A DNA stretch of 64,000 bases from Squalus acanthias (taxonomy: Eukaryota), in assembly GCA_030390025.1 (NCBI GenBank), contig CM059425.1:239444001-239508000 (forward strand), written 5' to 3'. The notes beneath the pieces were generated by a model, which saw only the letters and a list, made by a program, of their open reading frames with translations, made no database searches and was not told where the DNA came from. Position numbers and translations under genes: made by a program. Of this stretch, positions 9,101 through 58,109 are shown one piece after another (position 1 is the first letter of the stretch; every line of letters starts with the position of its first letter).

Positions 9101-12100
9101 TTTGACTGGGAGCATCAAGTAAGTAGGCTCCTATAGCCACATCTCTGCTCTACAGAAGGTTGTGAAGCAGAGATGAAACTTTTCCAGAGGAGTGTGCAAC
9201 AAAGCTGCATTTTAATTAGCGTTCAAATAACAATCAAGAGTTGTTTATATGGATGAGATTCGGTAACACAACAGAGTCCAGGAATTGAACCTGGGACTTT
9301 CCTAATCTCTACCTCGCTACTTGATGCATTTATGTTGATAAGGCAGTAAATAGTGCAAAGTATTGTGATTGATTTGAATAGAATACAAAACAGTGAGATA
9401 ATGCTAAAGTTATATGGTACCTTGCTTAGACCAGAGTACTGTGTACAGTTCTGATTGCCATACTACAAAAAGGATATTTTTTTATTGGGCAAAATGCAGA
9501 AATGTTTTGCACGGATTTTACCAGAATTGAAACGATGCAACAATCAGAAAAGATTGAGCAGGCTAGGGCTCTTTAATCTGGAAAAGACTAAAAGGAGATC
9601 TTATAGGGGCCTTTAAAATTATGAAGGGGTTCGATAGGGTGGACATGGAGAAACATGGAATAAATAAAGTGGGAGGAGGTTCATGTGGAGTATACATACT
9701 GGCATAGACCAGTTAAGCCAAATGGCCTGTTTTTGTGCTGTAGATTCCATGTAATTCTATGTACAGGAAACTCTCGTTTAAACGGCACCTAAATATCCGG
9801 AACTCTCTAATAACCGGCAGAATTCATACTCCGAAAACTACTTTATACAGTCGTTTATAAGTTTTGTTTTACTGTTAAGTAATTAGAGTTATGGATTACT
9901 CTCAACTGGCATTACTGTACTTAATCAAGCATCTTCCACCATCCATTTAACACAACATTCTGTAGGGGAGTACCCAATTATACTGCACATTTCTTGATTT
10001 TTAAATTTTTGTTTGTTAAAAATAGCCTCGGTAGATATACCTCTCCGTTATCCGGAATTTTTAATCAACCGGCACCATCCCGGTCCCGTCGGTGCCGGAT
10101 ACGAAAGAGTTTCCTGTATACACTTAGCCATCAGGGCAGTTCATCAGTATTTTTAATACCGTATCATACACACACTGCTTGTTTGGGAGGTGGGGTTTGG
10201 AAAATAATTCAAGTTGTGACGTTGAGGAGCAGGCAACCTACTTTATATTCAGTGTGTTATATTTTCCTGCACCATTTCCCATATCCCAACACTTCCAATC
10301 ACAATTCTAGATGGCCAAAAACAATTTCTCCAAATTGCTGTCTGAAAATTACCGCTCTAGATCTTGACCAGAGTCAGTTTTTCATATCAAACTATTGCCC
10401 ATCCAGATTGATAACTTTTCCTTTATAAAAGATCAGTCAAGTACAAGATCTGAAGAATGTGGAAAGAAAAAATGCGAGGGTAAGTATTTATTTTGTATCA
10501 AAAGTTTTCACTTCTAAAATTATTAAAAATTTATAATAAATTACAAGTTGAAATTAACTAATATTTAATGTTTACAGGTGTTGACGACCTTCAACAAGAC
10601 AAGAAAGCACTTTCTAGTAGCTCAGAAGGAATTAAACGAGTAATGCTATGTTTAATTTGGTCTTATCTTAAATCATTAGTATTGACACCGTTTGTGTGTG
10701 GTACTTAAGTAAATAGTAAAATATAGAAACATAGAAGACAGGAGCAGGAGTAGGCCATTCGGCCCCTCGAGCCTGCTCCGCCATTCGATGAGATCATGGC
10801 TGATCATCCAAACTCAGTACCCTGTCCCTGCCTTCTCCCCATATCCCTTGATACCTTTAGCTTTAAGAAATATATCTAACTCATTCTTGAATATATTTAA
10901 TGACTTGGCCTCAACTGCCTTCTGTGGTAGAGAACTCCACAGGTTCACCACTCTCTGGGTGAAGAAATTCTTCCTCATTTCTCATATTTTATGTTTCAAG
11001 TATGGTCCTTGTTATTTTTTCTTTGCAAGCAGTGTACCCTTTTTGATGATTTTAGGTCACTTAACTCAAGTACCACTGTGATGAAATATAACTATTTAAA
11101 TGCACAGTGGAAATGTTACTAATTTAAATTATAATCAATTTACCACAGACCAGTTGATTTTTTTTTTTCTTTCTACTCTAAATTGGAAAGTAAAGTTATG
11201 ATTATTTACAGACAGGAAGTACAACTCAAACACTTGCGGAAGGAATATTCTGAACTGAGTCAAAAGAAATCGGATTTGCAGCTTGCGACACAATTCGTGT
11301 CTGGTTTTAAACAACTGAAGACACAGTATATTGAACACAGGAACAAAAACCCTCGTGAGAAAGAAACAGTAAGACTTCTGTTTGTTGTATCCATTTGTGC
11401 TGGTATTCTGTAAAATGCTGTTTAGTGACTTGGGAGTCACAGACAAGTTCAGGTTCCCTATAACCTTGCCCACAAGCAGGATCCACAATAATGGCCTGGG
11501 AACACCCCACCTAGAACGGCAGTTTGCACTTTTATAGTGCTCGCACTTCAAAGTCCAAAGTTGCTCCATGAAGGAAGGGATGGTTGTCTTTATAGGAGTT
11601 AGCAGGAGGTGACCATAGACTTGGTTGAAGAAATGGATTTTGAGAAGGCTTTTAATGCTGTAGAGAGAGGCAGATGGTTTAAGAAAGGAAGTTGCTAAAT
11701 TGTAGGCTTGAAATAGTGGAGTTGAGGAAACCACAGGCGGCCAGAATCAGGATGGGAGGATGTGTGGTTGGGGTAAGGGTGTGGAGGGATATGAAGATGA
11801 GGATTTTAAGTTTGGTGTGTGTGGGAGGAGAGATGGAGAATAGTGCAGGTCAACGAGGATGGGGGTGATAGGTGAGCACGGCTTAATGAAGATATGGGGG
11901 TAGACTTTGAGAGAAGGCAGAGCACTTGCATTTATAAAGTGCCTTTCACATCGTTCGTGCATCCCAAACTACTTTACAGCCAATTAATTAATTTAAGTGA
12001 AGTCACTGGTTCTGTCGTTTAACATGGAAGTTTAACTCCCCCCTTTAAAGACCTATTCGTGATTCTCCCATGGCGATGCACATGGGAAAACACCAAATAG

Positions 12101-17016: not shown

Positions 17017-20000
17017 CTGAAAGAAAGAGTCAGTTTCATTTAGTTTCAAACAAATCTGCTGTTACATGGTCAGTGTAAGCTCATTTTCAGAGGATGTTAA
17101 TGGGGAATATTTACATGGTGATCAGTTGGTATCTCTTTATCTGCTAGTAAGTTTGCATTTTGTTTCAGCTATTTGAATGAATTTTAGTGTGGAACCAGCA
17201 ATGCAAATATTGTCAGTATGAGCTGATTGTTACATCTTTAAAAGACCCAACACATTTTGCTGTAAAATACCCGAGGACAATACCAACAGCTGCTGGTCAA
17301 TATATATATTCTATAGCCTAAAGTGAGAGAAGACCATTCGGTCCATTGACTCCACTACATTAACTCTCCCATCATGGACTTTAATTCTATTTTGAATAAC
17401 TCCATTGTTTTGCCTCTAGGTAAATTATTGTAAACATTTATCACTGAAGTTTTATCCAGTATCAATTTAAATATAGTTTTTACTTATTTCCATTTATGTC
17501 TTACCTTCTCGTTGCACTTCTAAAATAATCCGAGTTTCTCATTTATACTATTTAATATCTTGTATATTTCTTAATTGCCTTTTTAAAGTGTTACATTGGA
17601 ACAGGAGTAGGCAATTCAGCTCCTCGAGCCTGTTCAGCCATTCAGTTAAATCACGGCTGATCCAAACCTCAACTCCATTTACCTGCTATTATCCTATTTC
17701 CCTTAATACCTGCCCCAACAAAAAAAAATCAATCTCAGTCTTGAAAATTTCAGTTGAGTCAGTATCCACGGCCTTTTGGGCAAGGGTTCCAGATTTCTAT
17801 TACACTTTATGTGAAATAATGCTTCCTGATTTCACTCCTAAATGGTCTAGCTCTAATGTGAAGAGTATGCCCTTTTGTTCTGGATTCCCTCACCAGAGGA
17901 AATAGTTACTCTGCGTCTATCCTAATAAATCCAAAGTGGATAACCTTACACTTCCCCCGCACTGAACTACATCTGCCATAGTTTTGTCCACTCACTTAGT
18001 CTTTCTACATCCCTTTGCAACTTCCTGTTCCCATCCATACAATGTACTGTGCTTCCTAACGTCGTGTCATCTGCAAATACAACTCTATTCCTTCATCCAA
18101 CTCATTAATATATATGGTGAAAAGCTGAGGAACACCACATACACATTCCGTCAATCAAAAAAAAACTTGCATTTCAAGACCTCAAGATGTCCCAAAGCGC
18201 TTTACAGCCAATGAAGTACTTCTGAAATGTAGTCATTGTTGTAATGTGGCAGCCAATTTGCACATGCCAAGCTGCCACAAACAGCAGTGATGATGACCAG
18301 ATAATCTGTTTTTAGTAATGTTGATTGAGGGATAAATATTGGCTAAGACAGCGGGGATAATTCCCCAGCTCTTCTTCGAAATAGTGCCATGGGATCTTTT
18401 ATGTCCACCCCAGAGGACAGACGGGACCTGAGTTTAACGTCTCATCCGAAAGATGGCACCTCCAACAGTGCAGTACTCCCTTTGCTGCTCTGAAGTGTCA
18501 GCCTAGATTTTTGTGCTCAAGTCTCTGGAATGGGACTTGTACTCATAACCTTATGACTCAGGAGGTGAGAGTGTTTGCTTTATTCCTACTCTGTATCCTA
18601 TGTAGGTCCTTTACAGTCAGACGGGAAAATTTATAATGGGGAATGAGGAAATGGCAGAGAAATTAAATAAATACTTTGTTTCTGTCTTCACGGAGGAAGA
18701 CACACAAAACCTCCCAGAAATACAAGAAAACCAAGGGTGTGGTGAGAATGAGGAACTTAAAGAAATTATTAGTAAAAAAACAGTACTAGCAAAGTTAAAT
18801 TAATGGGACTAAAAGTCGATAAATCCCAAGGACCGGATGACCTACATCCTAGGGTTTTGAAAGAGGTGGCCATTGGGATAGTGGACGCATTGGTTGTCAT
18901 CTTCCAAAATTCTATAGGTTCCTGCAGATTGGAGAATAGCAAATTAAGAAAGGAGGGAGAGAGAAAACGGGGAACTACAGACCTGTTAGCCTCACATCAG
19001 TAGTTGGGAAAATGCTGGAATCTATTATAAAGGATGCAATAACTGGGCACTTAGAAACTAATAGTAAGATTGGGCAGAGTCAACATGGATTTATGAAAGG
19101 GAAATCCTGTTTGACAAACCTATGGAGTTATTTGTGATGTAACTAGTGGAGTAGACAAAGGGAAACCGGTAGATGTGGTGTATTTGGATTTTCAGAAGGC
19201 CTTCGATAAGGTCCCACACGAGGTTGGTGAACAAAATTAGGGCACATGGAATTGGGGGTAATATACTGGCATAGATTGAGAATTGGTTAACAGACAGAAA
19301 ACAAAGAGTAGGGATAAACGGGTCTTTTTCAGGATGGCAGGCTGTGACTAGTGGGGTACCACAAGGATCAGTGTTGGGCCCCAGCTATTCACAATCTATA
19401 TCAATGATTTGGATGAGGGGACTAAATGTAACATTTCCAAATTTGTTGATACAAAGCTAGGTGGCAGTGTCAGTTGTGAAGAGGCTTCAGGGGGATCTCG
19501 ACAGGCTCAGTGAGTGGGTGAGAACATGGCAGATGGAATATAATGTGGATAAATGTGAAGTTATCCACTTTGGTAGAAAAAACAGAAAGGCAGAGTATTT
19601 CCTAAATGGTGAAAGATTGGGGAATGCAGATGCTCAAAGGGACCTGGGTGTCCTTGTACATGAGTCACTGAAAGTGAATGTGCAGGTGCAGCAAGCCATT
19701 AGGAAGGCAAATGGTATGCTGGCCTTCATTACAAGAGGATTTGAGTACAGGAGTAAAGAAGTCTTACTCCAATTATATAGGGCCTTGGTGAGACCACACC
19801 TGGAGTACTGTGTACAATTTTGGTCTCCTTACCTAAGGAAGGATATACTTGCCATAGAGGGAGTGCAACGAAGGTTCACGAGATTGATTCCTGGGATGGC
19901 GGGACTGTTGTATGAGAAGAGATTGAGTAAACTAGGCCTGTATTCTCTTGAATTCAGAAGAATGAGAGGGAATCTCATTGAAGCATACAAAATTATTACA

Positions 20001-23000
20001 GGGCTTGATAGGGTGGATGCTGGGAGAATGTCTCCCTTGGCTGGGGAGTTTAGCACCAGGGGCCACAGCCTCAGGATAAAGGGTAGGCCATTCAGGACTG
20101 AGATGAGAAGAAATTTCTTCACACAGGGTGGTGAATCTTTGGAATTCTCTACCCCAGAGGGCTGTGGAGGTTCAGTCATTGGGTATATGCAAAACAGAAG
20201 TCGATAGATTTCTGACTAGTAAGGGCATCAAGGGATATGCCGATAGGGCCGGTGAATGGAGTTGAGGCAGAAGATCAGCCATGATCTCATTGAATGGCGG
20301 AGCAGGCTCGAAGGGCTGAATGGCCTACTCCTGCTCCTATTTCTTAATGAGAAGTCGCACAACACCAGGTTATAGTCCAACAGATTTATTTAATTTTACA
20401 AGCTTTCGGAGCTTTCGCTCCTTCCTCAGGTAAGTTAGCAGTGAGAGAATCTCCCAGAATTCACAATTTAAACACAGACAAAATCTATTCAAATCTTTCC
20501 CTACATCAAAGACACACTAAGAGCACAGCCAAGACAATGAGATGTGTCCCAGGGGGTCCAACGTGTCAAACCACCTGCTGGCTGCATATCCTGTCAATTT
20601 GTGTTGGTTCTTGTGTTAGTCTTTTTGAAAAAAAAACCACCTGGGAAGACCTGGGTTTGACACGTTGGACCCCCTGGGACACATCTCATTGTCTTGGCTG
20701 TGCTCTTAGTGTGTCTTTGATGTAGGGAAAGATTTGAATAGATTTTGTCTGTGTTTAAATTGTGAATTCTGGGAGATTCTCTCACTGCTAACTTACCTGA
20801 GGAAGGAGCGAAAGCTCCGAAAGCTTGTAAAATTAAATAAATCTGTTGGACTATAACCTGGTGTTGTGCGACTTCTCATTTTTGTCCACCCCAGTCCAAC
20901 GCCGGCATCTCCACATCATGACTCCTATTTCTTATGTTATGTTACCTGCCAACCAATTACTGACCCATGTCACAAGATTGCCCCCAATTCTTTGCGCTTT
21001 CATTTTTGCTAATCTCTTGTGCGGAACCTCATCAAATACCTTCCATAGACACTTCCCTATTCACCCTGCTAGTGATCTCAAAAAATTCATCTACATTAGT
21101 CAGACATGACCTACCCATCACAAATCCAAGCTGACTCTTTAATAGCTGATACTTGTCCAAGTGGTCAATCACTCTGTCTCTGATAAGATTCTAGTAACTT
21201 CCCCACAATTGATGTTAAATTGACAGGTCTCTAGTTACCTTGGTTCTCCCTCCTTTCTTAAATAATGGAGTGACATTTGCAATTTTCCACTCCAAAAGGC
21301 ACAAATTCTAAATCTAGAGAGCCTTGGAAAATTATGACTTGCGCATCTGCAGTTTCTCCACCTATTTTAAAATCCTGAGATGGAAACCATCAAGTCCTGG
21401 AGATTTGTCTATCTTTCTCTAGTACCTGGAGAAACTTCACTGTCTTCATTACTGTATCCTTTCTAAGCCAAGTACTGCGCTCAGTATTCCAAATGTGGTC
21501 TGACAGGAATGTCACAAAACCTTTTAGTGCTTTACAGTGTAGAGGTCTTTTAAATGGAAATTAACCTTTACATTCTTACTCCCTTCCATGTCACTCTACT
21601 GGCACAAAATTCCCAAGATTGCTGGTAGATGTGACTATAGGGCAGGACTGTTTAAACTGTACAAGCAATAAGGAAGGCAAATGGCATGTTGGCCTTTATT
21701 GCAAGGGGGTTGGAGTAGAAGAGTAAGGAAGTCTTGCTACAATTGTACAGGGCCTTGGTGAAACCACACCTGGAGTACGGTGCACAGTTTTGGTCGTCTT
21801 ATCTAAGGAAGGATATACTTGCCTTGGAGGCAGTGCAACGAGGGTTCACTAGACTGATTCCTGGGATGAGAGGGCTGTCCTGGGATGAGAGATAGTGTAG
21901 AATGGGTCTATACTCTCTGGAGTTTAGAAGAATGAGAGGTGATCTCATTGAAACATACAAGATTCTGAAGGGGATTGACAGGGTAGATGCTGAGAAGTTG
22001 TTTCCCCTGGCTGGAGTGTCTAGAACTAGGGGGCATAGTCTCAGGATAAGGGGTAGGCCATTTAAGACTGAGATGAGGAGGAATTTCTTCACTCAGAGGG
22101 TTGTGAATCTTTGGAATTCTCTGCCCCAGAGGGCTGTGGATGCGGAGTCTTTGAGTATATTCAAGGCTGAGATAGATAGATATTTGGACTCCTGGGGAAT
22201 CAATGGATATGGAGATCGGGCAGGAAAGTGGAGTTGAGGTCGATGATCAGTTGATGTCGATGATCAGTTGATGTCGATGATCAGCCATGATGTTATTGAA
22301 TGGCGGAGCAGGCTCGAGGGACCGTATGGCCTACTCCTGCTCCTATTTCTTATGTTCTTAAGAGAAGGGGGCATTGTAGATTCTTTGGTGAATTTTTCTG
22401 ACAACATTTTAAATAGGGAATGTCCACTAATCCAGCAACTCTATCATAAGATGCCTGGAAAAATGGGTCAGCTTGCAGATAAGTAGACACACATCTGCAA
22501 CGTGTTCTAAAAATAGCAGCAGGAAAACTGGTCCATTTTATATAATTAAATTTTATAAGTAGCATGTTAGTGGTAGTAGAATTAATTATAACTTCAACAA
22601 TACAAATGAAATAGTGCACTTCATTTCTGTTAAATTGCAGCTTGATAGGAAATACATGCCTATTGCACCGGGCACCATGATTATTAGCAAGTCAAATGAT
22701 TTATTTTCACTTTATACAAAGCTACAATACTGATCTATGCATTGGTTTCATTACATACCATATCAATGAGGAAATCCAAACAGCATTCATGGGGTAATGG
22801 GTGACCTTGAATACAAAAGGAATTGAGTAAGTTAGTGTGTAGTAGGACTATTGCATTATGTAATGAAATGTTAAAAATTCAATGGAATAAGATACGTTCT
22901 TACTTTCAGACCTGAACTTCTGAGCTCGGCACACAGGATCATAGCATTTCTGGTACCAGATTTCTCTCTTCAAGTCAACCACAACCCTACAAAATAAGAG

Positions 23001-26000
23001 AATGCAATAGAATATGCAATTCCCGACATGGCATCCCATGAGTACTGTTACTGAGATTTTGCTGTCAGCCATTAAGGCAATAGCAGTACTCACCCACAAA
23101 CTGTATTTCCTCTTCCCCCCCCCAGAAATAAGTGAAAACTACTTTTTATAAAAATGTGAAATTTTGTGATAAATACAAGTGCTAGGAATGAATGTTAAAA
23201 CCTGTATGTTGGGGAAAACTAACTGGAACATAGGGCATGAAGTTAGGCCTTTCATACTGTGCAGGAGGACATCTCTACTGTTATGACATTAAAATGTATT
23301 AAAAGGTTGTCTCTGCTGCAGGCTCATTAAAGTGGTAGAGGTTGCGTCTTGTAGGAGAATACAGTCTCTTCCTACTGAACGTATGCTGCAACTTTTCCAT
23401 TGCTCCATATCCTCATTTATAATAATTCAAAAGGTAATACAATTATGTATACATCTGTAAATGGGGATTTTAGTGCACGTGAAATCAACGCATTCACTTA
23501 CTTTAGGGGCTGCTGAGATTCCAGTTTTTGTCTGGAAACAGCAGTGATCTCCAAAATCCAGTAGCATCCTTCGTCAGCATTCTGCTGAGCCCTGGTTGAT
23601 CGAGTAGCTAATGAGGGGATGGTGTTGGGGGCAAGCAAGCAAGGAGTTTTTTGCGTGGACCAAACAGGACAGCTTCTGTCTTAGCAATATTAAGTTTAGG
23701 AAGGCTCTGGCTCATCCACATAATGTCAGCCATGTAATCTAACAGTATAACGCCGAGTGTGGAGGTGAGGGTGGTAGCAGTAAATGTGATATTATAGCAA
23801 ATGTAGTTTTACAGTAACTGGCATAATATTCTAAATAAAGCTCATTTTATTTTATGATGTTAGCCCCAGGTTAACTAGTTGCAAATTTTTTTTGTCTGGT
23901 CAATTTTTCTCTCCTTCCCCCCTCCTGAAAGTGTGAACTCCTTGCTGGGGTATACTTCTACAAGGAGTGACCATCCTCCTATACCTCATCCATGTGCTAT
24001 TATTCACGTGAGCCTTGGCACTGAAACCTGCCTTCAGTGGCTATCTACACGTGTGAACCTTTCAGCAGGGGTCACTAGACAGTGATCTGGAGTGAGAAGC
24101 CCAGCTATTTACCCTCCTCTAATCCAGGGTAGCTGAGGCCACTTTTAACATCCATCCTGCTACCCTGCCCGAGATCAGCTGACTCAGCAGGACTGTGAAT
24201 CTAATCTGGAAGCCTCCAGGTCCATATGGTTCAACTACTCACTGCGTACTCTGACCTGTTGCACATTGAATGAAGGTACGTCCAGTGATTGCAGAGACTG
24301 CTGCTTAGATCAGTTAACATTTGTGTGAATTGTACTTACATAATATTGTTGCTTTTATGAGCTCGACCAATGTTCTCACACCAGTGATTTTTGCTGATGT
24401 CATAAACAATCAGTTCTTCAGAGGAGAAATAATTCCAACGACGCAACTCTGAGGAAATTAAATTATTTTAAAGCTATTTTTAAAGCACAGTATAAGATGA
24501 AACTAACAAGATTCCTGCTTTGCGGTAAGGTTCAATAACGCAGTGGTATTGATGGCCGACGTGACAAAAACTTACCACCTGGTATTCCTCCCTTGTTTAC
24601 TTGACCAGCGATAAAACTGTCAATCTCTGGGTACGGTGAACAATGGTAACCCACCATTGTATCTGTAAAACAGAAATCCGCCACGGCTACAGTTCTCTGT
24701 GAAATACACACAAGCTACAGCAGGACAAAGTGAACATTTATTACGTTAATTTCTAAATAACTCCGTGAAATTTGTTAAGCAAAAATTCTTGTTCAGTCCC
24801 GTGGAATGCACATCCTGTGCCATGTGGGGACTCCAGGACACTTCCCATGTCCTGGACAACCACATGTGCAGGAAGTGTCGTCAGCTGGAGGAGCTCGAGC
24901 TCCGGGTTTTGGAGCTTGAGCAGCAGCTGGCGTCACTGCGGTGTATCCGTGAGGCTGAGAGCTTCGTGGATAGCACGTTTCATGAAGTGGTCACCCCGCC
25001 GATAAAGAGTATGCAGGCAGAAAGGGAATGGGTGATCACCAGACAGAAGAGGAGGACCAGGCAGGTAGTGCAGGAATCCCGAGTGCATCTTGCTCTCCAA
25101 CCAGTATTCAGTTCTGAGTACTGATGAGGGCGATGGTTCCTCTGGGGAGTATAGCCAGAGCCAAGCCTGCGGCACCACGGGTGGCTCAGCTGTACAGGGG
25201 GGAGAGGAAGAAGAGTGGGAAAGCAATAGTGGTAGGGGATTCGATAGTTAAGGGAGTAGATAGGCGTTTCTGCGGCAGCAGACATGACTCCTGGATGGTA
25301 TGTTGCCTCCCTGGTGCCATGGTCAAGGATGTCACCGAGCAGCTGCAGAACATTCTAAGGCAGGAGGGTGAACAGCCAGAGGTCGTGGTCCATATCGGTG
25401 CCAACGACATAGGTAGAAAGAGGGATGAGGTCCTGCAGGCAGATTTCAGGGAGCTAGGAAAGAGGTAGTAATCTCTGGATTACTCCCGGTGCCACGCGCT
25501 AGTGAGTATAGAAATAGGAGGATAGCGCAGATGATTGCGTGGCTGGAGAGATGGTGCAGGAGGGAGGGCTTTAGATTCCTGGGGCATTGGGACCGGTTCT
25601 GGGGAGGTGGGACCTGTACAGGCCGGACAGGTTGCACCTCAACAGGGCCGGAACCAATATCCTCGCGGGGAGGTTTGCTAGTGCTGTTGGAGAGGGTTTA
25701 AACTAATTTGGCAGGGGGATGGGCACCAGGATGTAACATTAGAAAGGGGAAATAAAGTGCTCAAAGGATTGGGAGAGGCAGAGAGCACTAGAGTAAGAAA
25801 TAGTAAGGTATTAGGTGGGGTGAAACAAAGAGAATACAGGATGGTCTAAGATGGGTTTACAGTGTATGTATGTGAACGCACGAAGCGTAGTAAATAAGGT
25901 AAGTGAACTGCAGGCACAGATTTAAGGTGATTGGCAAAAGAGCCAAAGGCGACGTTAAAAAAAAACTTTTTCACACAGACAGTGGTTAAGATCTGGAATG

Positions 26001-38000: not shown

Positions 38001-41000
38001 AATAATCAAACGTATACCGTGGGGTAGAGTTTCCGCTTTGGGCGCAATCGGCGATTCCATTGCAAATTGCGCCCAAAAATGCGCCCGTTTTTAAAAGTCT
38101 TTCCCCCCCCCACCACTGAGTTTCCGCTCAAACTCATTTGCACATTGCCAAACACAAAATCTGCCATGAACCAGCGCAATTGGGCAGCGCTTTAAAATGT
38201 AATTTTGAAAAAAAATTATGCTTTAAAAAAATGTCTTGATAGAGTGGTAACTTGGTACAACTACAGCTGAAAATGGGTTTATCACAAAAAATAAGCATTT
38301 TTAATCATAGTGTCAATCTACCACCTGTCAGTAACCCTATTTTAAATGACTGAAACTGACTTTTAAAAAATATACAAAACTATTTTCTGGTTAGATTAGG
38401 GTACAGTAGTCAGTTCCTTAGTAAATTTTAAAAAGAATTATATTCAAAACCCTTTTAAAAAGGTATCTATTAGTGTCCTTGCGCCCAAAAGATCCAGCTT
38501 AATTGTTAGAGCCTCTTCAAAGGCCTGCAAACGAGCGCAATTAGCGGAAACTTCCAATGGTGATTAATTCACCCTGGGGGCGTGGCCGGTTTTGTGGGCG
38601 GGGCCTGTATCTAGCACGATATTTTTAAAACTAGCGCAAAAGATCGCGGCAACTCGAGTTCCGCTGAATGCAATTTGTGCTTAAAATGACGCGATCTTTT
38701 ATGCCGGTTACGCCGATTTCAGGTGTATTGCGCCAAAAAAAAGTGCAATCGAGCGGAAACTCCAGGCCCTTATCTATAACTCGGTTATTAAGCTAAATTC
38801 CTAACAAGTAAACAAATACTTCAACAGCTCAGCTAACAAGATCAGTACAATTCCTTATTTCTATTATCTTATCACACAAAACCTTCTTCCTGCAGTTAAT
38901 TGCTATTCAACCATGTGAATCTGCTGACCATAAGTCTGTTTTTAATTCTGTATTTTTGTGCATTAGTCCTAATCTAAACTAGGCAACAATTTACACAGAC
39001 ACAAACCAATTAAAAACCCTGGTATCTACACCACTAGAGCACATGCTCAATTAGGTGGTTAGCTCGCACAAGCATGACCCGATTAAAGTGGCCAATGCTA
39101 CTGGGATCAGTTTCCATAATACTTTAATTAAAAATTAATTGACCGCCATCTTAGGCAGGTGTAAAGCAGTACAACATTATACTTGTCCAGTTACTAAAAA
39201 TCACATCCGCTTACATACTGATATTAAGCAAAGTTTAATTAACATTTTTATAAAATTTTCTAAATTCAAGACATTACTGAGGATTGCGAAGCAGCCAACA
39301 TAATTACATTATTTAAAAAGAGCGAAACCACAGACCAATAGGTTTCGCATCTGTTGTAGGGAATGACTTTGAAACTACTTTGAGAGAACTAGTGGGTGAG
39401 CACTTAGAGAAACATATTGTGTTAAAAGGTCAGTCAGTATGGAATTAGGAAATGGTGGTCATGCTAAAGTGAACCTGCTGGGGGTTTTTTTTGCAGACGT
39501 TACGAAAATGGTGAACAGGGAAATATAGTTGAAATTGTACACTTGGATTTTCACAAAGCTTTTGACAAAGTCTAGAACAGTGACTAATGGTTGCAGTAAG
39601 GAGTCATGGAATAGAAGATAAAGTATGATGCTAGATAGAAAATTGGCTTAATGACAGAAAATGAGAGTAGCCATAAATGGAAACTTTTCATGCTGGAAGT
39701 AGGTTATGAGCAGGTTACTACAGGGATCAGTCTTGAAACATTTGCTATTTATAATATAGTATATTATTGTCTTAGAATGAAATATTATAAGCAAAATCTC
39801 AAAATTTGCAGTAAATATCAAAATAGGAGACAGGACAAATAAGATGCAATGCAATTAGGCTAAAAAAAGGTGAGTTTTTTTCCTTTCCTTGGAGGGGTCG
39901 AGAGGAGCAGGAGTGCTCTTTCACGCCCTACGAGGAAAGCTTAGGCTTCTCCTACCCTGGAAATTCATTCAAAACAACCTCTATTAGATCTTATTAGCAT
40001 GATATAGTCGCTTACTGGTAGTAAAACCACAGCTCAGTGTAGGTTGTGACAAGGTAAATTCGCTGTCCAAGCATAGTGTCCTTCTTCTCAATTTCATTCT
40101 CCAAAGCAAATACGTGAACATCCTGTAATGAAATGTTAAAAATAAAAAGAATATAATTCAGGCACATATTCCTTCTTTAGCCCATGGTGTTTACTGAAGG
40201 CTTTCAACTTTATTATGGTTTGGCTGCTGGGAAGTTCTGCTTGATATCTGGACTATTTTTATGGAGATATACACTCTTTTTAGCATTCCTCATTTTTCTC
40301 CCCTTTCTCATTTCCTCCCTTTCCCAGGTACATAGGCCGCGATTTCCCCTACCTTGGTGGGTCCGGTGCGGCCGGGGTCAGTGGCGGGTCCTGACCCCGC
40401 TGCTGGCTCCAGCCCACTGTCCAAAGTGATTTTATGTTGATTGGGCTTGTTAAGCCCGTCCAGCGCATTTGCCGGCCAATTGAAGGAAGCAGGTCTGATG
40501 ACGTCACTTGATGACGCGTCATAAGCCGGTTTCCTTAAAGGGACCATGCGCAAATTGATTTTGACAGTTGTGCTGTCAATGTTCTACAGCATTGAGGTGC
40601 TGCAAACACTGACAAGCACTGCACAGAGGTGCATGCCTGCACCCAGGCTCTCCCATGACTCCCTCCATATGCTTATGGAGCGAGTCAAAGCACGCAGGGA
40701 GGTCTTCTTCCCTTCCCATGGGCAGAAGAGACCTCCCCAGGAGATCAACGCAGCCTAGTTGCACATTGCACAGGAAGACACAAGCAGGGATGTCGTCAGG
40801 TAGACCAGGCTACAGTGGCGGAAACCTTTCAATTATCTCAGTAGGTCACAAAACGTTACTGCAAAGCCACACTCAACCTCATCCTACAGTAAATAAAACC
40901 AGAAAATGCTGGAAATACTCAGCAGGTCAGGCAGCATCTGTGGAGAGAGAAACAGAGTTAACGTTTCAGGTCGATGACCCCTCGTCAGAGCTGGAAAAAG

Positions 41001-44000
41001 CTGGAGATCGAACAGGTTTTTAAGCAAGTGTAGGGGCAGGGAAAGGGGGGAGGGGAGGAAAGAACAAAAGGGAAGGTCTGTGATGGGATGGAAGGCAGGA
41101 GAGATTAAGAGACAAACGGGATGATGGCGCAAGGCAAGGAGATGGTAATGGGACAAGTTAAGAAACAAAATATGACGCTAGATGAAGTGTAAATGGCAAT
41201 GGCAGAATGATCAACAGTTGCCATGTGAGAGAGAGAAAAAAAAAATTGAAAAAAAAGATTGGGGCAGAGGTTATGGTCTGAAATTGTTGAACTCAATGTT
41301 GAGTCCAGAAGGCTGTAAAGTGCCTAATCGAAAGATGAGGTGCTGTTCCTCGAGCTTACATTGAGCTTCATTGGAACAGTGCAAGAGGCCGAGGACAGAG
41401 AAGTCAGAGTGGGAGTGGAGCATTAAAGTGAGAGGCAACCGGAAGCTCGGGGTCACCCTTACGGACTGAACGGAGGTGTTCCGCAAAGCGGTCACCCAAT
41501 CTGCGTTTGGTCTCCCCAATGTAGAGGAGACCGCATCGTGAGCAGCGAATACAGTATACTAAATTGCAAGAAGTACAAGTAAATCGCTGTTTCACCTGGA
41601 AGGAGTGTTTGGGGCTCTGGACAGTGGGAAGGGAGGAGGTAAAAGGGCATGTGTTGCATCTCCTGCGCTTGCACGTGAAGGTGCCGGGCGAAGGGGAAGG
41701 GGTGTTGGGGGTGATAGAGGAGTGGACCAGGGTGTCACGGAGGGAGCGGTCCCTTCGGAATGCTGAAAGGGGAGGTGAGGGGAAGATGTGTTTGGTGGTG
41801 GGATCGCGCTGGAGGTGGTGGAAATGGCGGAGGATGATCCGTTGAATGTGGAGGCTGGTGGGGTGAAAGGTGAGGACAAGGGGAACCCTATTGTGGTTCC
41901 GGGAGAGAGGGGCAGGGGTGAGGGCAGAAGTGCGGGAAATAGAACAGATGCGGTCAAGGGCCGTGTCAACCACAGTAGAGGGGAATCCTCGGTTGAGGAA
42001 AAAGGAAGACATGCCGGAAGCACTAGTATGGAAGGTGGCATCGTCAGAGCAGATGCGGCGGAGATGGAGAAACTGGGAGAATGGAATAGAGTCCTTACAG
42101 GAAGCGGGGTGGGAGGAAGTGTAGTCCAGGTAGCTGTGAGAGTCAGTGGGCTTGTAGTGAATGTTTGTCAATAGCCTATCCCCAGAGATGGCAACAGAGA
42201 AGTCGAGGAAGGGAAGGGAAGAGTCGGAGATGGACCATGTGAAGGTGAGGGAAGGGTGGAAATTGGAAGCAAAGTGAATGAAATTTTCTAGTTCAGGGCG
42301 AAAGCAGGAAACGGCACCGATACAGTCATCAATGTACCGGAAAAAGAGGTGAGGGAGGGGACCCGAGTAGGACTGGAACAAAGAATGTTCCACATATCCC
42401 ACGAAAAGGCAGGCATAGCTAGGACCCATGCGGGTTCCCATAGCAACACCTTTAATTTGGAGGAAGTGAGTGGAGTCAAAGGAGTAGTTGTTCAATGTGA
42501 GAACAAGTTCAGTCAGGCGAAGGAGGGTGGTGGTGGAATGGGACTGGTTGGGCCTCTGTTCAAGGAAGAAGCGGAGCGCCCTGAGGCCATTCTGGTGGGG
42601 GAGTGTCACTCATCACATCCCCATCACTCTGCCTTCCCTACCCTACTCCTGCACTTCCTTACTCACACCAACTTACCTTACACCTCCACCCATCCCTCTC
42701 CATCTACATTATCACTTCCTGATCTCACTAGCCAACCCTCACACTCACCCTCATCCTAGTCCAATCATAGTCCACCAGGATAGGCACTTGTGTGTTTTAG
42801 CCAATGTTCATGTGAAGTTTCTGTTAATGTGCTGTCAAATATTGAAATCTTTATTTTCAATACTGCATTCTTGGACAGATTTGTGTGCACCTTTGGAAGT
42901 GGCTTAGTGAGTTGCAGCGAATGGTGAGACATAACGGTACCCCCCGCAATGGTGATGAGTGTGAAAGGAATGGCTTGGGCATTGTAGGGATGCTTTATGG
43001 TGTTGGTGTGGGGTGGTGCCAACCTGGCGCATCATGTGTTGTCAATGGTGAGAGAGGTTGTTCCAATGAAGGGACACTGGATACAGAGTTTACTCCAAAC
43101 ACTTGCAACCTGCATAAAGCTCAATCTGTCTTCCAAATGCAGTAAGCAACAGCTTCTGAGCTTGGAAAGTGAACAGCTATGAGATGGAACTTCTTTAGCA
43201 CATTTGCAGCTGTCAAGTAAAGAGATGATTTCATGGTGGCACAACTCCCGACCTGCTTACCTGACGTGATCCCTGAGCAGCGTGGAACCCGTGGGTGACC
43301 TCATAAAATGTTAAGGTGAGCTCAAAATTCTCTTTAACAGGCTGTTAACAAGGTCTTAATCACCTAAATTGCCTCCCCCGCCACTTGGTGTCGTGTCTGT
43401 TCAGCGCTGACAGACCCGACATCTGTGAAACTAGCGTGGCAGCGGGTTCCCTATAGTTTCCATGTCTAAGAATATGGGATACACAACATGCTTTCAATTC
43501 ACCATCATTGCCATTCTTGACTGGCCACTAGGAGGCACACCAGAGCAGAAGAATGCCCAACTGATTTTATATCCCCATCTTCAGACAGGAGTTCAGCTTC
43601 CTCTGTCTGCTCTGCCTGCTATTGCACTGCACTTAAGGCTGAATATGTGACGTTGGAAGGATGAGTCAGAGAAAGAGGGCATTTGAACCTGTGCTCTCCT
43701 ACTGTGTGGTGTCATCCATTGACAATTTAAATGCATAGTGTCACTGCACCTCCCCATTTACAATTTTTTTTTTAAAAGAAAGATTTATTTTCAAATAATT
43801 TTTGTTGACCTTTTTTTTCCAGATAGCACTTTACTCCAACTTTGGCTATCTAAAAAGAAAAATGATTATTCTCTGACAAAGGTTCTTTGATACAAACAAT
43901 TTTGGTTTTAATCTGTCCTTGAACATCTGACTGGAATTTGTTCCATTTTCTGAACAGCAAACACATTTATGAGGGGTCTCCCGAAGTAGCAAACGCCTTC

Positions 44001-50630: not shown

Positions 50631-50643
50631 TCAACTTTACACT

Positions 50644-50680
50644 TCACCTGACGAAGGAGCAGCGCTCCGAAAGCTTGTGA
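50644..50680 (+). ncRNA. Minimal type I hammerhead ribozyme motif (family A)
   Basis: TCAC-CTGACGA-A-GGAGC-AGC-GCTCC-GAAA-GCTT-GTGA. Confidence 0.7.
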
Positions 50681-50768
50681 TTTCAAATAAAGCTGTTGGA
50701 CTATAACCTGGTGTTGTGCGACTTCTCACTTTTGTCCACCCCAGTCCAACACCGGCATCTCCGCATCA
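50645..50768 (+). mobile_element. 124-bp solo Penelope pLTR (family A) beginning at a hammerhead motif
   Basis: Homologous to 20794-20918; 13-bp TSD caactttacactt at 50632-50644 and 50769-50781. Confidence 0.85.
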
Positions 50769-50954
50769 CAACTTTACACTTGGCCAAGTTCCACCCACTT
50801 ACATATTTTGTGGTGGAGAGGAAAGGGTGGAAGGGAGGAACTATATGCTGTATTCTCAGGTCTCTCAGAAACATCCCAAAGCATTGCACAAATAATGAAT
50901 TCCTAGTTTGGGTGTCATCTACAGATTTGCATTCAGCTTCTGAAACCAAGAAGG

Positions 50955-53151: not shown

Positions 53152-53370
53152 AATAAAAACAGAAAATGCTGGAAATACTCAGCAGGTCAGACAGCATCTG
53201 TTGGGAGAGAAAGAGAGTTAACATTTCAGGTCGATGACGGTTCTGACGAAAGGGCATCGACCTGAAACGTTAACTCTTTCTCTCTCCAAAGATGCTGCTT
53301 GACCTGCTGAGTATTTCCAGCATTTTCTGTGTTTATTTCAAATTTCCAGCATCTGAAGTATTTTGCTTTT
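53152..53370 (+). mobile_element. Miniature inverted-pLTR Penelope derivative (family B) with hammerhead motif at 53239-53275
   Basis: Imperfect arms about 53152-53237 and 53254-53337 plus an unpaired tail of about 33 nt; GGTT-CTGACGA-A-AGGGC-ATC-GACCT-GAAA-CGTT-AACT. Confidence 0.8.
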
Positions 53371-53959
53371 TTTCCATGTACGTAGTGTAAAATTACGATT
53401 TGGTTTTCATTGGGTGGGTAGTGCCCTGTGGTGCCCACCAGTCATGCAGAGTTCTAAAAATGGATTTCTGGTACTTAAAGTACATATTTCCTACTGCAGG
53501 ATAAGGACATTGTGGAAGTGCCAGTTGATTCAAATATTTGCAAGGCAGCACAAAATGAAAAACACTGATGTGAAAGACTTCTCATCAGAAAAGAGCATAT
53601 TGAGAGTATAAGAGCTCATGATGCATTAGACAAGTATGATACAGCTAGTGCAATTCTGTCAAACTGATTCATATGCATTCATGAACATGAACACTGATGA
53701 AGTAATTCCCCATGTGGCCCTGAGAAAGTGAGGTTACCTCATCCTTATTGATGGATGAGGTAAAGCTGAACTGGATGATTAGAACTAAACGCTCCCTAGA
53801 CTCTAGATTTGATACATTCTTTTATTGTTGCAGTTAATAAATTGAATATTTATTCTGGTTAATGAGTTCAGTTTATTTTATTTAAAATAATCGTTAAATT
53901 CTGTTATAATAAAATAATTTTAGGTGCAGTGAATTACTGTTTCAGTTCAGATTAGTGTG

Positions 53960-57041: not shown

Positions 57042-57401
57042 TTTTCACATCAAGGTAGGAATTAAGATCTTGAGAAAGGCTGAATGTGTTCATAATTTAC
57101 ATTGAGCCCTGATCTGAGCCTTGGTCTTTGAATAGTAGTCAGCAGACACGTGCAAACTTTTTTCCCTTCATGGCAATTCACTTACCACCAACTATACGTA
57201 AACAAATGCAATACAAAACACTGAATTTACGAAATGCATTATTGAAGACAATGCTTTAGCCACTCATTTAAATTAACTAAAAGAATCTGTTTTTTGGGGA
57301 TTCCATAATCAACAGAATAGATGAATACTTTTCCAGCTGCAGCAAAGGAGTCCCAAATGGTGTTTTGACTCTCCGTGCCAGGGTACGGCATATAATGGCG
57401 T

Positions 57402-57542
57402 CAGTATTCCCTGTAACTTTTTGTTTTGGGCTGCGCGGCCCATTCAAAATTCTGTGCACACGCATTTTTTTTTTAACCTAAAAGCCATCTCACCGGCTGC
57501 GAGGGACCCCTGGAGTGCCGCGCAGCTGAAAAGGGAACACTG
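57402..57542. mobile_element. hAT-type MITE, 141 bp
   Basis: TIRs cagtattccct / agggaacactg; 8-bp TSD aatggcgt / aatgccgt (7 of 8 match). Confidence 0.75.
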
Positions 57543-57749
57543 AATGCCGTAGGTAGAAAAGATTTTGGAGAAAGAAGGGGATCCGTCAGAAGTCGCAGTT
57601 CATGTTGGAATCAACGACATTGGAAGGATTAGAATTGAGCTTCAAAAGGAGATGCAAGGAAGGAGGCAGCGCTGGATCTAGTTTAAGGAAAGTAAGTGGG
57701 GCAAGTAGGTAATGTAAGGGAACATCTAGGTGATAATGACCATAATATA

Positions 57750-57855
57750 AAATAAAAACAGAAAATGCTGGAAATACTCAGCAGGTCAGGCAGCATCTGT
57801 GGAGAAGGGAAAAACCAGAGTTAATGTTTCAGGTTGATGACCTTTCGTCAGAATT
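57750..57855 (-). mobile_element. Penelope family-B pLTR with a mutated hammerhead motif
   Basis: Matches 40890-40990; CTGACGA-A-AGGTCATCAACCT-GAAA-CATT. Confidence 0.75.
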
Positions 57856-58109
57856 TTGAATGGGCCGCGCAGCCCAAAAAAAAAAATTATAGGGAACATT
57901 GATGCTATTATATGCCTTACCCTGGCACTGACCGTCAAAACACCATTTGGGACTCCTCTGCTGCAGTTCTGACGAAATGTCGGGGCACATAAGAAAAGGA
58001 TTTTGTAAACTTAATAATTTTTTTTTTAAGTGAAAAGTTTAGGGCCAATTGAAGATGAAAAGGAAAACCTCATGGAAGATGAAGGAATGTTGGAGAACCA
58101 AATGAGTAC

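What the first reader, a model, noticed from the sequence alone, without database searches (positions are those of the whole stretch)
20346..20934. Perfect 227-bp-arm palindrome carrying a hammerhead motif on each strand, in the last PRIMPOL intron
Seen: arms 20346-20572 and 20654-20880 are reverse complements with no indel and no mismatch I could find, around an 81-bp spacer. Only the right arm continues into a tail of about 40 nt, and the unit sits between 13-bp direct repeats in a CR1 tail. Known: inverted pLTR plus a short 3' tail is the Penelope-like element insertion signature, and PLE pLTRs carry minimal hammerheads. Inference: this is a very young non-coding Penelope derivative. PRIMPOL pre-mRNA would contain both the ribozyme and its antisense and could fold a 227-bp dsRNA (ADAR/Dicer substrate) that silences self-cleavage. 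It could also extrude a cruciform in DNA.
Basis: partly seen in the sequence, partly recalled or inferred. Interest (0 to 1): 0.75.

Follow-up and report, generated by a model that had tools for sequence, protein, structure and literature searches.

The report
Mirror-image Penelope insertion in PRIMPOL intron
A real, perfect 227-letter mirror repeat in the last coding intron of the PRIMPOL gene is likely an ordinary leftover of a Penelope-like jumping gene that landed as two back-to-back partial copies, each with a small hammerhead-ribozyme motif predicted to be inactive here.

Summary
In detail: 227-bp arms, 100% complementary, 81-bp gap, 41-nt tail on the right, 13-bp target duplication, a minimal hammerhead on each strand, inside PRIMPOL's last coding intron. 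It is a 575-bp insertion of an abundant repeat family with the published Penelope-like layout (inverted 5'-truncated copy, tail, minimal hammerhead). Its RT/GIY-YIG partner could not be found. One correction: the 'spacer' is not a loop. Contigs from three of four runs show it is the 5' continuation of the left, tail-less copy. Neither copy contains the other, which argues against a fold-back artefact and favours priming from both target nicks (inferred). The hairpin is predicted to form in pre-mRNA and is a plausible ADAR substrate. 'Silencing' is probably moot: minimal hammerheads need a same-sense partner and none was found here. An 81-bp spacer makes a cruciform unlikely. Perfect identity bounds age only loosely at shark mutation rates. 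A second, older unit of this kind lies 32 kb away, and the scan found this before on other DNA (e1-7790103, e1-9860681, e1-7858806). Ordinary new member of a known kind.

The parts
20334..20346 (+). Left copy of the 13-bp target-site duplication, in the 3' tail of a LINE
   Evidence: identical to 20922-20934
20347..20651 (-). Left, inverted, tail-less copy of the element's 3' end (about 305 bp): arm 20347-20572 plus its 5' continuation, the 'spacer'
   Evidence: loose ends before 20654-20656 in runs X1, X5, X7 match the reverse complement of the spacer start; X5 contig 9 covers 20573-20651 on the minus strand
20396..20433 (-). Minimal type I hammerhead motif, sense to PRIMPOL pre-mRNA (mirror of 20793-20830)
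20652..20653 (.). Approximate head-to-head inversion junction (plus or minus 3 bases)
   Evidence: inferred (contig 9 stops matching at 20651; right arm starts 20654); no contig spanning it was among the rows printed
20654..20880 (+). Right, direct copy: arm
20793..20830 (+). Minimal type I hammerhead: 4-bp stem I, core with one extra A before stem II, 5-bp stem II closed by G10.1-C11.1, palindromic 15.1-16.1 instead of helix III, U at position 17
   Evidence: traits as in PMC4209133; compensatory stem I change in the copy at 50648
20881..20921 (+). 41-nt tail, on the right copy only
   Evidence: family contigs end at about 20878-20883 and about 20919-20922
20922..20934 (+). Right copy of the 13-bp target-site duplication
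   Evidence: X1 contig 6 spans 20899-20978 with 0 differences
17017..22758 (-). Last coding intron of PRIMPOL (5,742 bp), which holds the insertion
18797..20346 (+). Host LINE fragment (CR1-type by recall); its tail resumes at 20935 after the insertion
50645..50768 (+). Solo tailed copy of the same family (124 bp, 90% alike) with its own 13-bp duplication 50632-50644 / 50769-50781

Best explanation
This is a 575-bp insertion of two head-to-head partial copies of an abundant hammerhead-bearing repeat, likely a Penelope-like retrotransposon, likely made when both nicks of a 13-bp staggered target cut primed reverse transcription, and predicted to have no function for PRIMPOL. Shown: perfect arms, duplication, tail, motifs, intron position, two common 3' ends of the family about 40 nt apart, spacer continuous with the left copy. 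Inferred mechanism: the top-strand nick primed at the internal (tail-less) start site and ran about 305 nt; the bottom-strand nick primed at the tail end; the products were joined at 20652-20654. The right arm was either made from RNA on its own (268 nt) or partly copied from the first cDNA by fold-back and then annealed to a short tail-primed cDNA; this insertion cannot tell the two. Inferred consequence: the pre-mRNA folds a 227-bp duplex that buries the sense hammerhead and is probably A-to-I edited like other young inverted repeats, then is spliced out. The ribozyme would probably be inactive anyway for lack of a same-sense partner. Odds: PLE insertion 0.93; twin priming in either form 0.6; no selected host function 0.93.
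For: Layout equals the published one: inverted 5'-truncated copy next to a direct copy with a 30-40 bp tail on one end (PMC8557442), with 8-10 bp duplications (PMC3846280); dual minimal hammerheads 100-700 bp apart on opposite strands were reported in 2014 (PMC4209133); here the cores are 368 bp apart. A purified PLE cleaves and extends both strands and starts RT at two sites that bound the tail (PMC11167929). (stretch 20573-21500, 4 of 22 listed runs): 14810, 11831, 1801 and 1159 contigs laid; loose ends after 20878 (50 contigs) and 20883 (42) in X5 and after 20919 (15) in X7; X1 summed depth 6.1M, 3.3M, 0.29M, 2.9k across 20852-20975; loose ends before 20654-20656 in X1 (5), X5 (9), X7 (6) resemble the reverse complement of the spacer start (X1: last 9 letters exact); spacer depth falls away from the left arm (479k, 268k, 214k). 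Solo copies use either end: tailed family copy at 50645-50768 with a 13-bp duplication; tail-less copy of a second family at 40887-42748 with a 10-bp duplication and an ORF whose relatives carry RVT_1 and GIY-YIG. That second family forms the same inverted unit at 53152 to about 53375 with arms about 90% alike. Fold: mean arm-pair probability 0.999, hammerhead stem II 8e-16. Young repeats are the main A-to-I targets in metazoans (PMC9989829).
Against: No RT/GIY-YIG ORF was linked to this family: no genome is held, and the motif gave 0 hits in metagenome and viral contigs and one chance bacterial hit. Families 1 and 2 share no sequence similarity above shuffles (score 16 versus 18.6 +/- 3.1), so family 2 is an analogy only. 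Rfam does not call the hammerhead. The tail is 41 nt and the duplication 13 bp, a little above the quoted ranges. No contig spanning the central junction was printed, the left junction was outside the stretch laid, X6 showed no spacer-type loose end among printed rows, and 828 loose ends, 44 joints and 30000 pieces were not shown. No RNA evidence of editing or cleavage was obtained.
Confidence: 0.85

Rival explanations
1. Same element, other mechanism: one tail-primed cDNA folded back on itself to give a perfect palindrome, the copy was resolved at the tail-less site, and a later one-sided deletion at the centre removed the spacer's mirror image.
For: Self-priming was proposed for head-to-head PLE repeats (PMC3846280); the tail was read as a product of endonuclease resolution (PMC8557442); e1-9860681 reports non-independent arms (unchecked); a 10-bp direct repeat and short repeats lie in the spacer.
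Against: Needs an extra deletion, since tail and spacer sit on different copies. The tail-less site is an RT start site in vitro and ends a solo copy in this window. The left copy's inner end shows no complementarity to the arm/spacer border.
Confidence: 0.22
2. Assembly fold-back artefact.
For: Perfect identity; central and left junctions not directly seen in other data; PLE inverted structures trouble assemblers.
Against: A fold-back copy is a subset of its template, but here each copy has sequence the other lacks; the left end falls on the family's natural tail-less end; a 13-bp duplication flanks the unit; X1 contig 6 bridges tail, duplication and unique flank with 0 differences at depth 13.5, like flank contigs at 13 (X1 may be the assembly's source); a diverged unit of the same layout lies at 53152.
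Confidence: 0.03
3. Co-opted regulator: the hairpin masks an active ribozyme, or feeds Dicer/ADAR, and so tunes PRIMPOL splicing or 3' end formation.
For: Predicted stable duplex; conserved intronic hammerheads exist in amniotes (PMC6155905); the antisense arm has a consensus 5' splice donor at 20799-20791 on the PRIMPOL strand.
Against: Monomeric minimal hammerheads were inactive in vitro and an Anolis PLE hammerhead needed its protein; no second sense copy passed the descriptor on the minus strand; U at position 17 is a poor cleavage base (recalled); the unit is about 2 kb from the upstream exon and 3.3 kb from the last one; no sign of conservation; the family is very abundant.
Confidence: 0.04
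4. A MITE or other DNA element with 227-bp terminal inverted repeats.
For: Inverted ends with a target duplication.
Against: The tail lies outside the right arm, so the ends are not symmetric; a solo one-armed copy has its own 13-bp duplication; 5' truncation gradient and two 3' ends; hammerhead.
Confidence: 0.02

Closest known systems
Inverted-pLTR insertions of endonuclease-bearing Penelope-like elements (Arkhipova et al. 2013, PMC3846280; Craig et al. 2021, PMC8557442; passages read)
   Same: Head-to-head direct and inverted 5'-truncated copies, tail on one end, short target duplication, insertion into another retroelement.
   Different: No ORF in this copy; tail 41 nt and duplication 13 bp versus 30-40 nt and 8-10 bp; no palindrome at the centre; partner ORF not identified.
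Minimal hammerheads (min-HHR) of metazoan PLEs (Cervera and De la Pena 2014, PMC4209133; parts 1-2 of 4 read)
   Same: Conserved core, extra base between 9 and 10.1, G10.1-C11.1, 4-bp helix I, palindromic 15.2-16.2 in place of helix III, pairs on opposite strands 100-700 bp apart.
   Different: Helix II is 5 bp rather than 7-8 bp; sharks are not named in the parts read; activity untested here.
Poseidon PLE of Anolis (PAc; Frangieh et al. 2024, PMC11167929; parts 1-2 of 4 read)
   Same: Two 3' ends that bound a tail; AT-rich target; hammerhead in the terminal repeat.
   Different: The parts read do not explain inverted insertions; in PAc the ORF starts at stem II, whereas here no start codon is there and all three sense frames have stops.
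Non-LTR retrozymes (Li, Clavereau, Pollet, bioRxiv 10.64898/2026.07.22.740005; part 1 of 5 and passages read)
   Same: Non-coding, type I hammerhead, PLE-related, present in a chondrichthyan.
   Different: Retrozymes are head-to-tail tandems with at least two same-sense hammerheads; this unit is head-to-head and not tandem.
L1 twin priming (Ostertag and Kazazian 2001; title seen in a reference list; mechanism recalled)
   Same: Both target nicks prime cDNA, giving an inversion inside a target duplication.
   Different: In L1 the inverted part is a different, upstream stretch of the RNA; here it repeats the same 3' end.

Membership tests
Penelope-like element (EN+) | ORF with telomerase-like RT and GIY-YIG endonuclease in the family | not testable with these tools
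   No genome held; no usable related locus; no protein relative of the antisense frame. A different hammerhead family in the window does have such an ORF.
Penelope-like element (EN+) | Inverted 5'-truncated copy at the 5' side of a direct copy | tested here: met
Penelope-like element (EN+) | Optional 30-40 bp tail; two alternative 3' ends | tested here: met
   41-nt tail; family contigs end at about 20878-20883 and 20919-20922
Penelope-like element (EN+) | Short target-site duplication, no poly(A) tail | tested here: met
   13 bp here and at 50632/50769; no poly(A) at either end
Penelope-like element (EN+) | Sequence similarity to a catalogued PLE pLTR | not testable with these tools
   No repeat library available; no similarity to family 2 above shuffles
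Minimal type I hammerhead | Core, stems I and II, extra base at 9/10.1, G10.1-C11.1, palindromic 15.2-16.2 | tested here: met
   (3 hits versus 0 in 100 simulations); compensatory stem I pair in the 50648 copy
Minimal type I hammerhead | Self-cleavage as a dimer | not testable with these tools
   Needs an assay; cofolding two copies did not give the dimer fold, which this energy model is not suited to judge
Rfam hammerhead families | Score at the gathering threshold | tested here: not met
   No hammerhead model among 8 matches at E<=10
Non-LTR retrozyme | Tandem head-to-tail units with two or more same-sense hammerheads | tested here: not met
MITE / TIR DNA transposon | Inverted repeats at both termini, fixed length | tested here: not met
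   Tail outside the right arm; one-armed copy with its own duplication

The most novel reading that the evidence does not exclude
Inverted Penelope insertions are the in vivo footprint of twin priming: each nick of the staggered cut starts reverse transcription at one of the element's two start sites. This copy records it, because the tail and the 5' extension sit on opposite copies, so neither could be copied whole from the other. The abundant, near-perfect shark copies would let a simple census settle how PLEs build their inverted ends.
Probability: 0.5. Interest if true: 0.4.

Novelty: new member of a known kind. Interest (0 to 1): 0.15.

Why it matters
As a locus it matters little: it is one of very many such insertions, and the layout and ribozyme were described in 2013-2014. 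Its modest value is as a clean data point on an open mechanistic question, how PLEs form tandem and inverted ends (called still undefined in PMC8557442). It also shows that this family can put long perfect dsRNA into pre-mRNAs of housekeeping genes, a probable ADAR load in cartilaginous fish.

Tried and rejected
Whole-genome copy count and partner search: no genome held. Rfam: 8 sub-threshold matches, none a hammerhead, all rejected. A 21-nt family motif: 0 loci in metagenome contigs, 0 in viral contigs, 1 in prokaryote genomes, a 24-bp chance match inside a bacterial ORF (L001). Protein search with the 124-aa antisense frame 20351-20722: nothing at E<=0.001; sense frames have stops. Family-2 ORF against PDB: nothing. 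Cofolding two hammerheads gave no dimer fold; uninformative. Presence/absence polymorphism: no empty-site end among printed rows, but most rows were hidden and X5 was read only about 55%; unresolved. Equal depth of junction and flank contigs in X1 hints at homozygosity in that sample only. Contigs cannot show editing; X7 is only guessed to be RNA. Earlier-findings look-ups by sequence, relatives and near place returned nothing. Cruciform extrusion judged unlikely (spacer DNA fold only -4.4 kcal/mol). Literature: 'twin priming' + Penelope gave 3 papers, none on PLE mechanism by title or abstract start; Penelope + inverted repeat + TSD + template switch gave 3, likewise; hammerhead + Penelope + shark gave 1, where 'shark' describes the ribozyme's shape; elasmobranch + Penelope gave 2 whale-shark genome papers, not opened. 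Subscription journals are largely outside the library, and supplements were not read (Fig. S2 of PMC11167929 bears on the tail ends).

Full report
Observation. The arms 20346-20572 and 20654-20880 are exact reverse complements of 227 nt with 81 nt between them. Nothing else comes near: the next of 25 inverted pairs in 18000-23500 is 23 nt. A 13-bp direct repeat flanks the unit (20334-20346, 20922-20934). Its last base doubles as the first arm base, so the insert is 20347-20921, 575 bp. A 41-nt tail follows the right arm only. The target is the 3' end of a LINE whose tail resumes after the right duplication; the frame at 19461-20204 has no RT hit itself, but a 73% alike copy hits RVT_1. 'CR1' is my recalled label.

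Host gene. A minus-strand exon frame matches human PrimPol 130-187 at E 4.5e-20 and another hits the UL52 domain. The last three coding exons (22986-22904, 22805-22759, 17016 to stop) splice in one open frame, so the insertion lies in the last coding intron, 17017-22758. The host is probably a cartilaginous fish: the closest named relatives of a retroelement ORF in the window are from sharks and rays at 57-70% identity, and earlier notes say shark-like.

Hammerhead. Both arms carry a core with a 4-bp stem I, one extra A before a 5-bp stem II closed by G-C, and a palindromic stub in place of helix III. These are the traits given for minimal hammerheads of Penelope-like elements (PMC4209133, parts 1-2 of 4). 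A strict descriptor found 3 sites in the window and none in 100 simulated windows. The third site, 50648, is a 90% alike family copy with a compensatory change in stem I and its own 13-bp duplication. Rfam called no hammerhead, which fits a motif without helix III but is a negative all the same.

Family structure from reads. No genome is held. Twenty of 22 listed runs hold part of the region; I laid contigs of 4 runs (three samples of organism A, one of organism B) on 20573-21500, a stretch with the spacer, the right arm, the tail and the right flank. Thousands of contigs lay on the element in every run. Summed depth is no copy number, but its shape is clear: in X1 it is 6.1M at 20852-20882, 3.3M in the tail, 0.29M at 20914-20944 and 2.9k just beyond. 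Long loose ends follow 20878 (50 contigs) and 20883 (42) in X5 and 20919 (15) in X7. So the family has two common 3' ends, and the two copies here use one each. Loose ends before 20654-20656 in X1 (5), X5 (9) and X7 (6) resemble the reverse complement of the spacer's start, exactly for 9 letters in X1; none was printed for X6. An X5 contig covers 20573-20651 on the minus strand, and spacer depth falls away from the left arm (479k, 268k, 214k). The spacer is therefore the 5' continuation of the left copy, and the true inversion junction is near 20652-20654. X1 contig 6 bridges tail, duplication and unique flank (20899-20978, 0 differences, depth 13.5 against 13 for flank contigs); X1 may be the assembly's own sample. 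Limits: 828 loose ends, 44 joints and 30000 pieces were not shown, no contig across the centre was printed, and the left junction was not in the stretch.

What it is. A tail-less inverted copy of about 305 bp and a tailed direct copy of 268 bp, head to head, in a target duplication. This is the layout described for Penelope-like elements (PMC8557442 passages; PMC3846280 passages), and hammerhead pairs on opposite strands 100-700 bp apart were reported in 2014. A second family repeats the layout at 53152 to about 53375 with arms about 90% alike. Its longest copy (40887-42748, 10-bp duplication) has an ORF with a weak GIY-YIG hit (E 5.6e-4, under the curated cut-off) whose relatives carry RVT_1 and GIY-YIG. 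The two families are not similar in sequence, so this is analogy. The partner ORF of family 1 was not found, so membership rests on structure. Whether the source is autonomous cannot be told; the depth gradient looks like ordinary 5' truncation.

How it likely arose. A purified Anolis PLE cleaves and extends both target strands and starts RT at two sites that bound the tail (PMC11167929, parts 1-2 of 4). Applied here (inference): a 13-bp staggered cut, one nick primed at the tail-less site and the other at the tail end, then a head-to-head join. Each copy has sequence the other lacks, so simple copying of one from the other, by a fold-back cDNA or by an assembler, does not give this unit. Two variants stay open. 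The right arm may be partly copied from the first cDNA and annealed to a short tail-primed cDNA; I added this after an unchecked note on another insertion said its arms were not independent (e1-9860681). Or one tail-primed cDNA folded back, as the self-priming idea in PMC3846280 would have it, and the centre later lost one side. I give twin priming in either form 0.6 and single fold-back plus deletion about 0.2. My searches found no paper applying twin priming to PLEs, within a library that lacks most subscription papers; L1 twin priming itself is recalled (title only).

What it likely does. The PRIMPOL-sense RNA is predicted to fold the full duplex (MFE -460 kcal/mol for 611 nt; mean arm-pair probability 0.999 and hammerhead stem II 8e-16). 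Young inverted repeats are the usual A-to-I targets in animals (PMC9989829 passages), so editing is likely and ordinary; it was not tested. Masking probably changes little: a single minimal hammerhead did not cleave in vitro, dimers did so weakly, the Anolis one needed its protein, and only one sense motif passed the descriptor on the minus strand. In yeast, breaks at inverted Alus fell 80% with a 9-bp spacer and fork pausing was lost at 9-12 bp (PMC8053094 passages), so an 81-bp spacer argues against a cruciform. Age: 0 of 226 mismatches bounds divergence at 1.3%, or about 9 million generations at 7e-10 per generation (4.7-47 million over the rate's interval; PMC10587355 passages). Near-identical pieces also occur in organism B, and template switching can homogenise arms (PMC8604942, listing only). 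Young is plausible; very young is not shown.

Novelty. The kind is known, and this scan has met it before in this genome (e1-7790103, e1-9860681) and in another (e1-7858806). It is not a retrozyme (no tandem; definition from bioRxiv 10.64898/2026.07.22.740005) and not a MITE. Interest 0.15.

Noticed in passing
window 53152-53375 (approx.): Second inverted unit, of a different hammerhead family: tail-less inverted copy plus tailed direct copy, arms about 90% alike, almost no spacer; here the tailed copy is the longer; no duplication of 6 bp or more found.
   Followed up: partly
window 40887-42748 (-): 5'-truncated Penelope-like element of family 2 with a 401-aa RT-end/GIY-YIG frame (41407-42609), degenerate hammerhead at 40988, tail-less 3' end and a 10-bp duplication, in a PRIMPOL intron or just upstream, sense strand.
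   Followed up: partly
window 57337-57966: 118-bp inverted termini, 90% alike, 394 bp apart (MITE-like); a family-2 tail piece lies inside at 57750-57852.
   Followed up: no
window 20799-20791 (-) and 20427-20435 (+): The antisense of the hammerhead's 5' strand is a consensus 5' splice donor; on the PRIMPOL strand it lies in the right arm, buried in the predicted duplex.
   Followed up: no
window 20879-20920 (+): The tail holds a pyrimidine run ending in AG followed 22 bases later by an ATG at the tail's end, like a 3' splice site before a start codon; family 2 has a similar run after its hammerhead. May relate to the pLTR intron of PLEs.
   Followed up: no
window 20835: Many contigs join the shared 3' 85 bases with a different upstream sequence like that of the 50645 copy, so at least two subfamilies share the 3' end.
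   Followed up: no
window 11135-11413 (+): Coiled-coil-like exon frame downstream of PRIMPOL on the opposite strand, possibly CENPU (recalled synteny); Pfam gave no real hit.
   Followed up: partly
window 22232-22284: 17-bp unit in 3.1 tandem copies inside a LINE 3' end.
   Followed up: no
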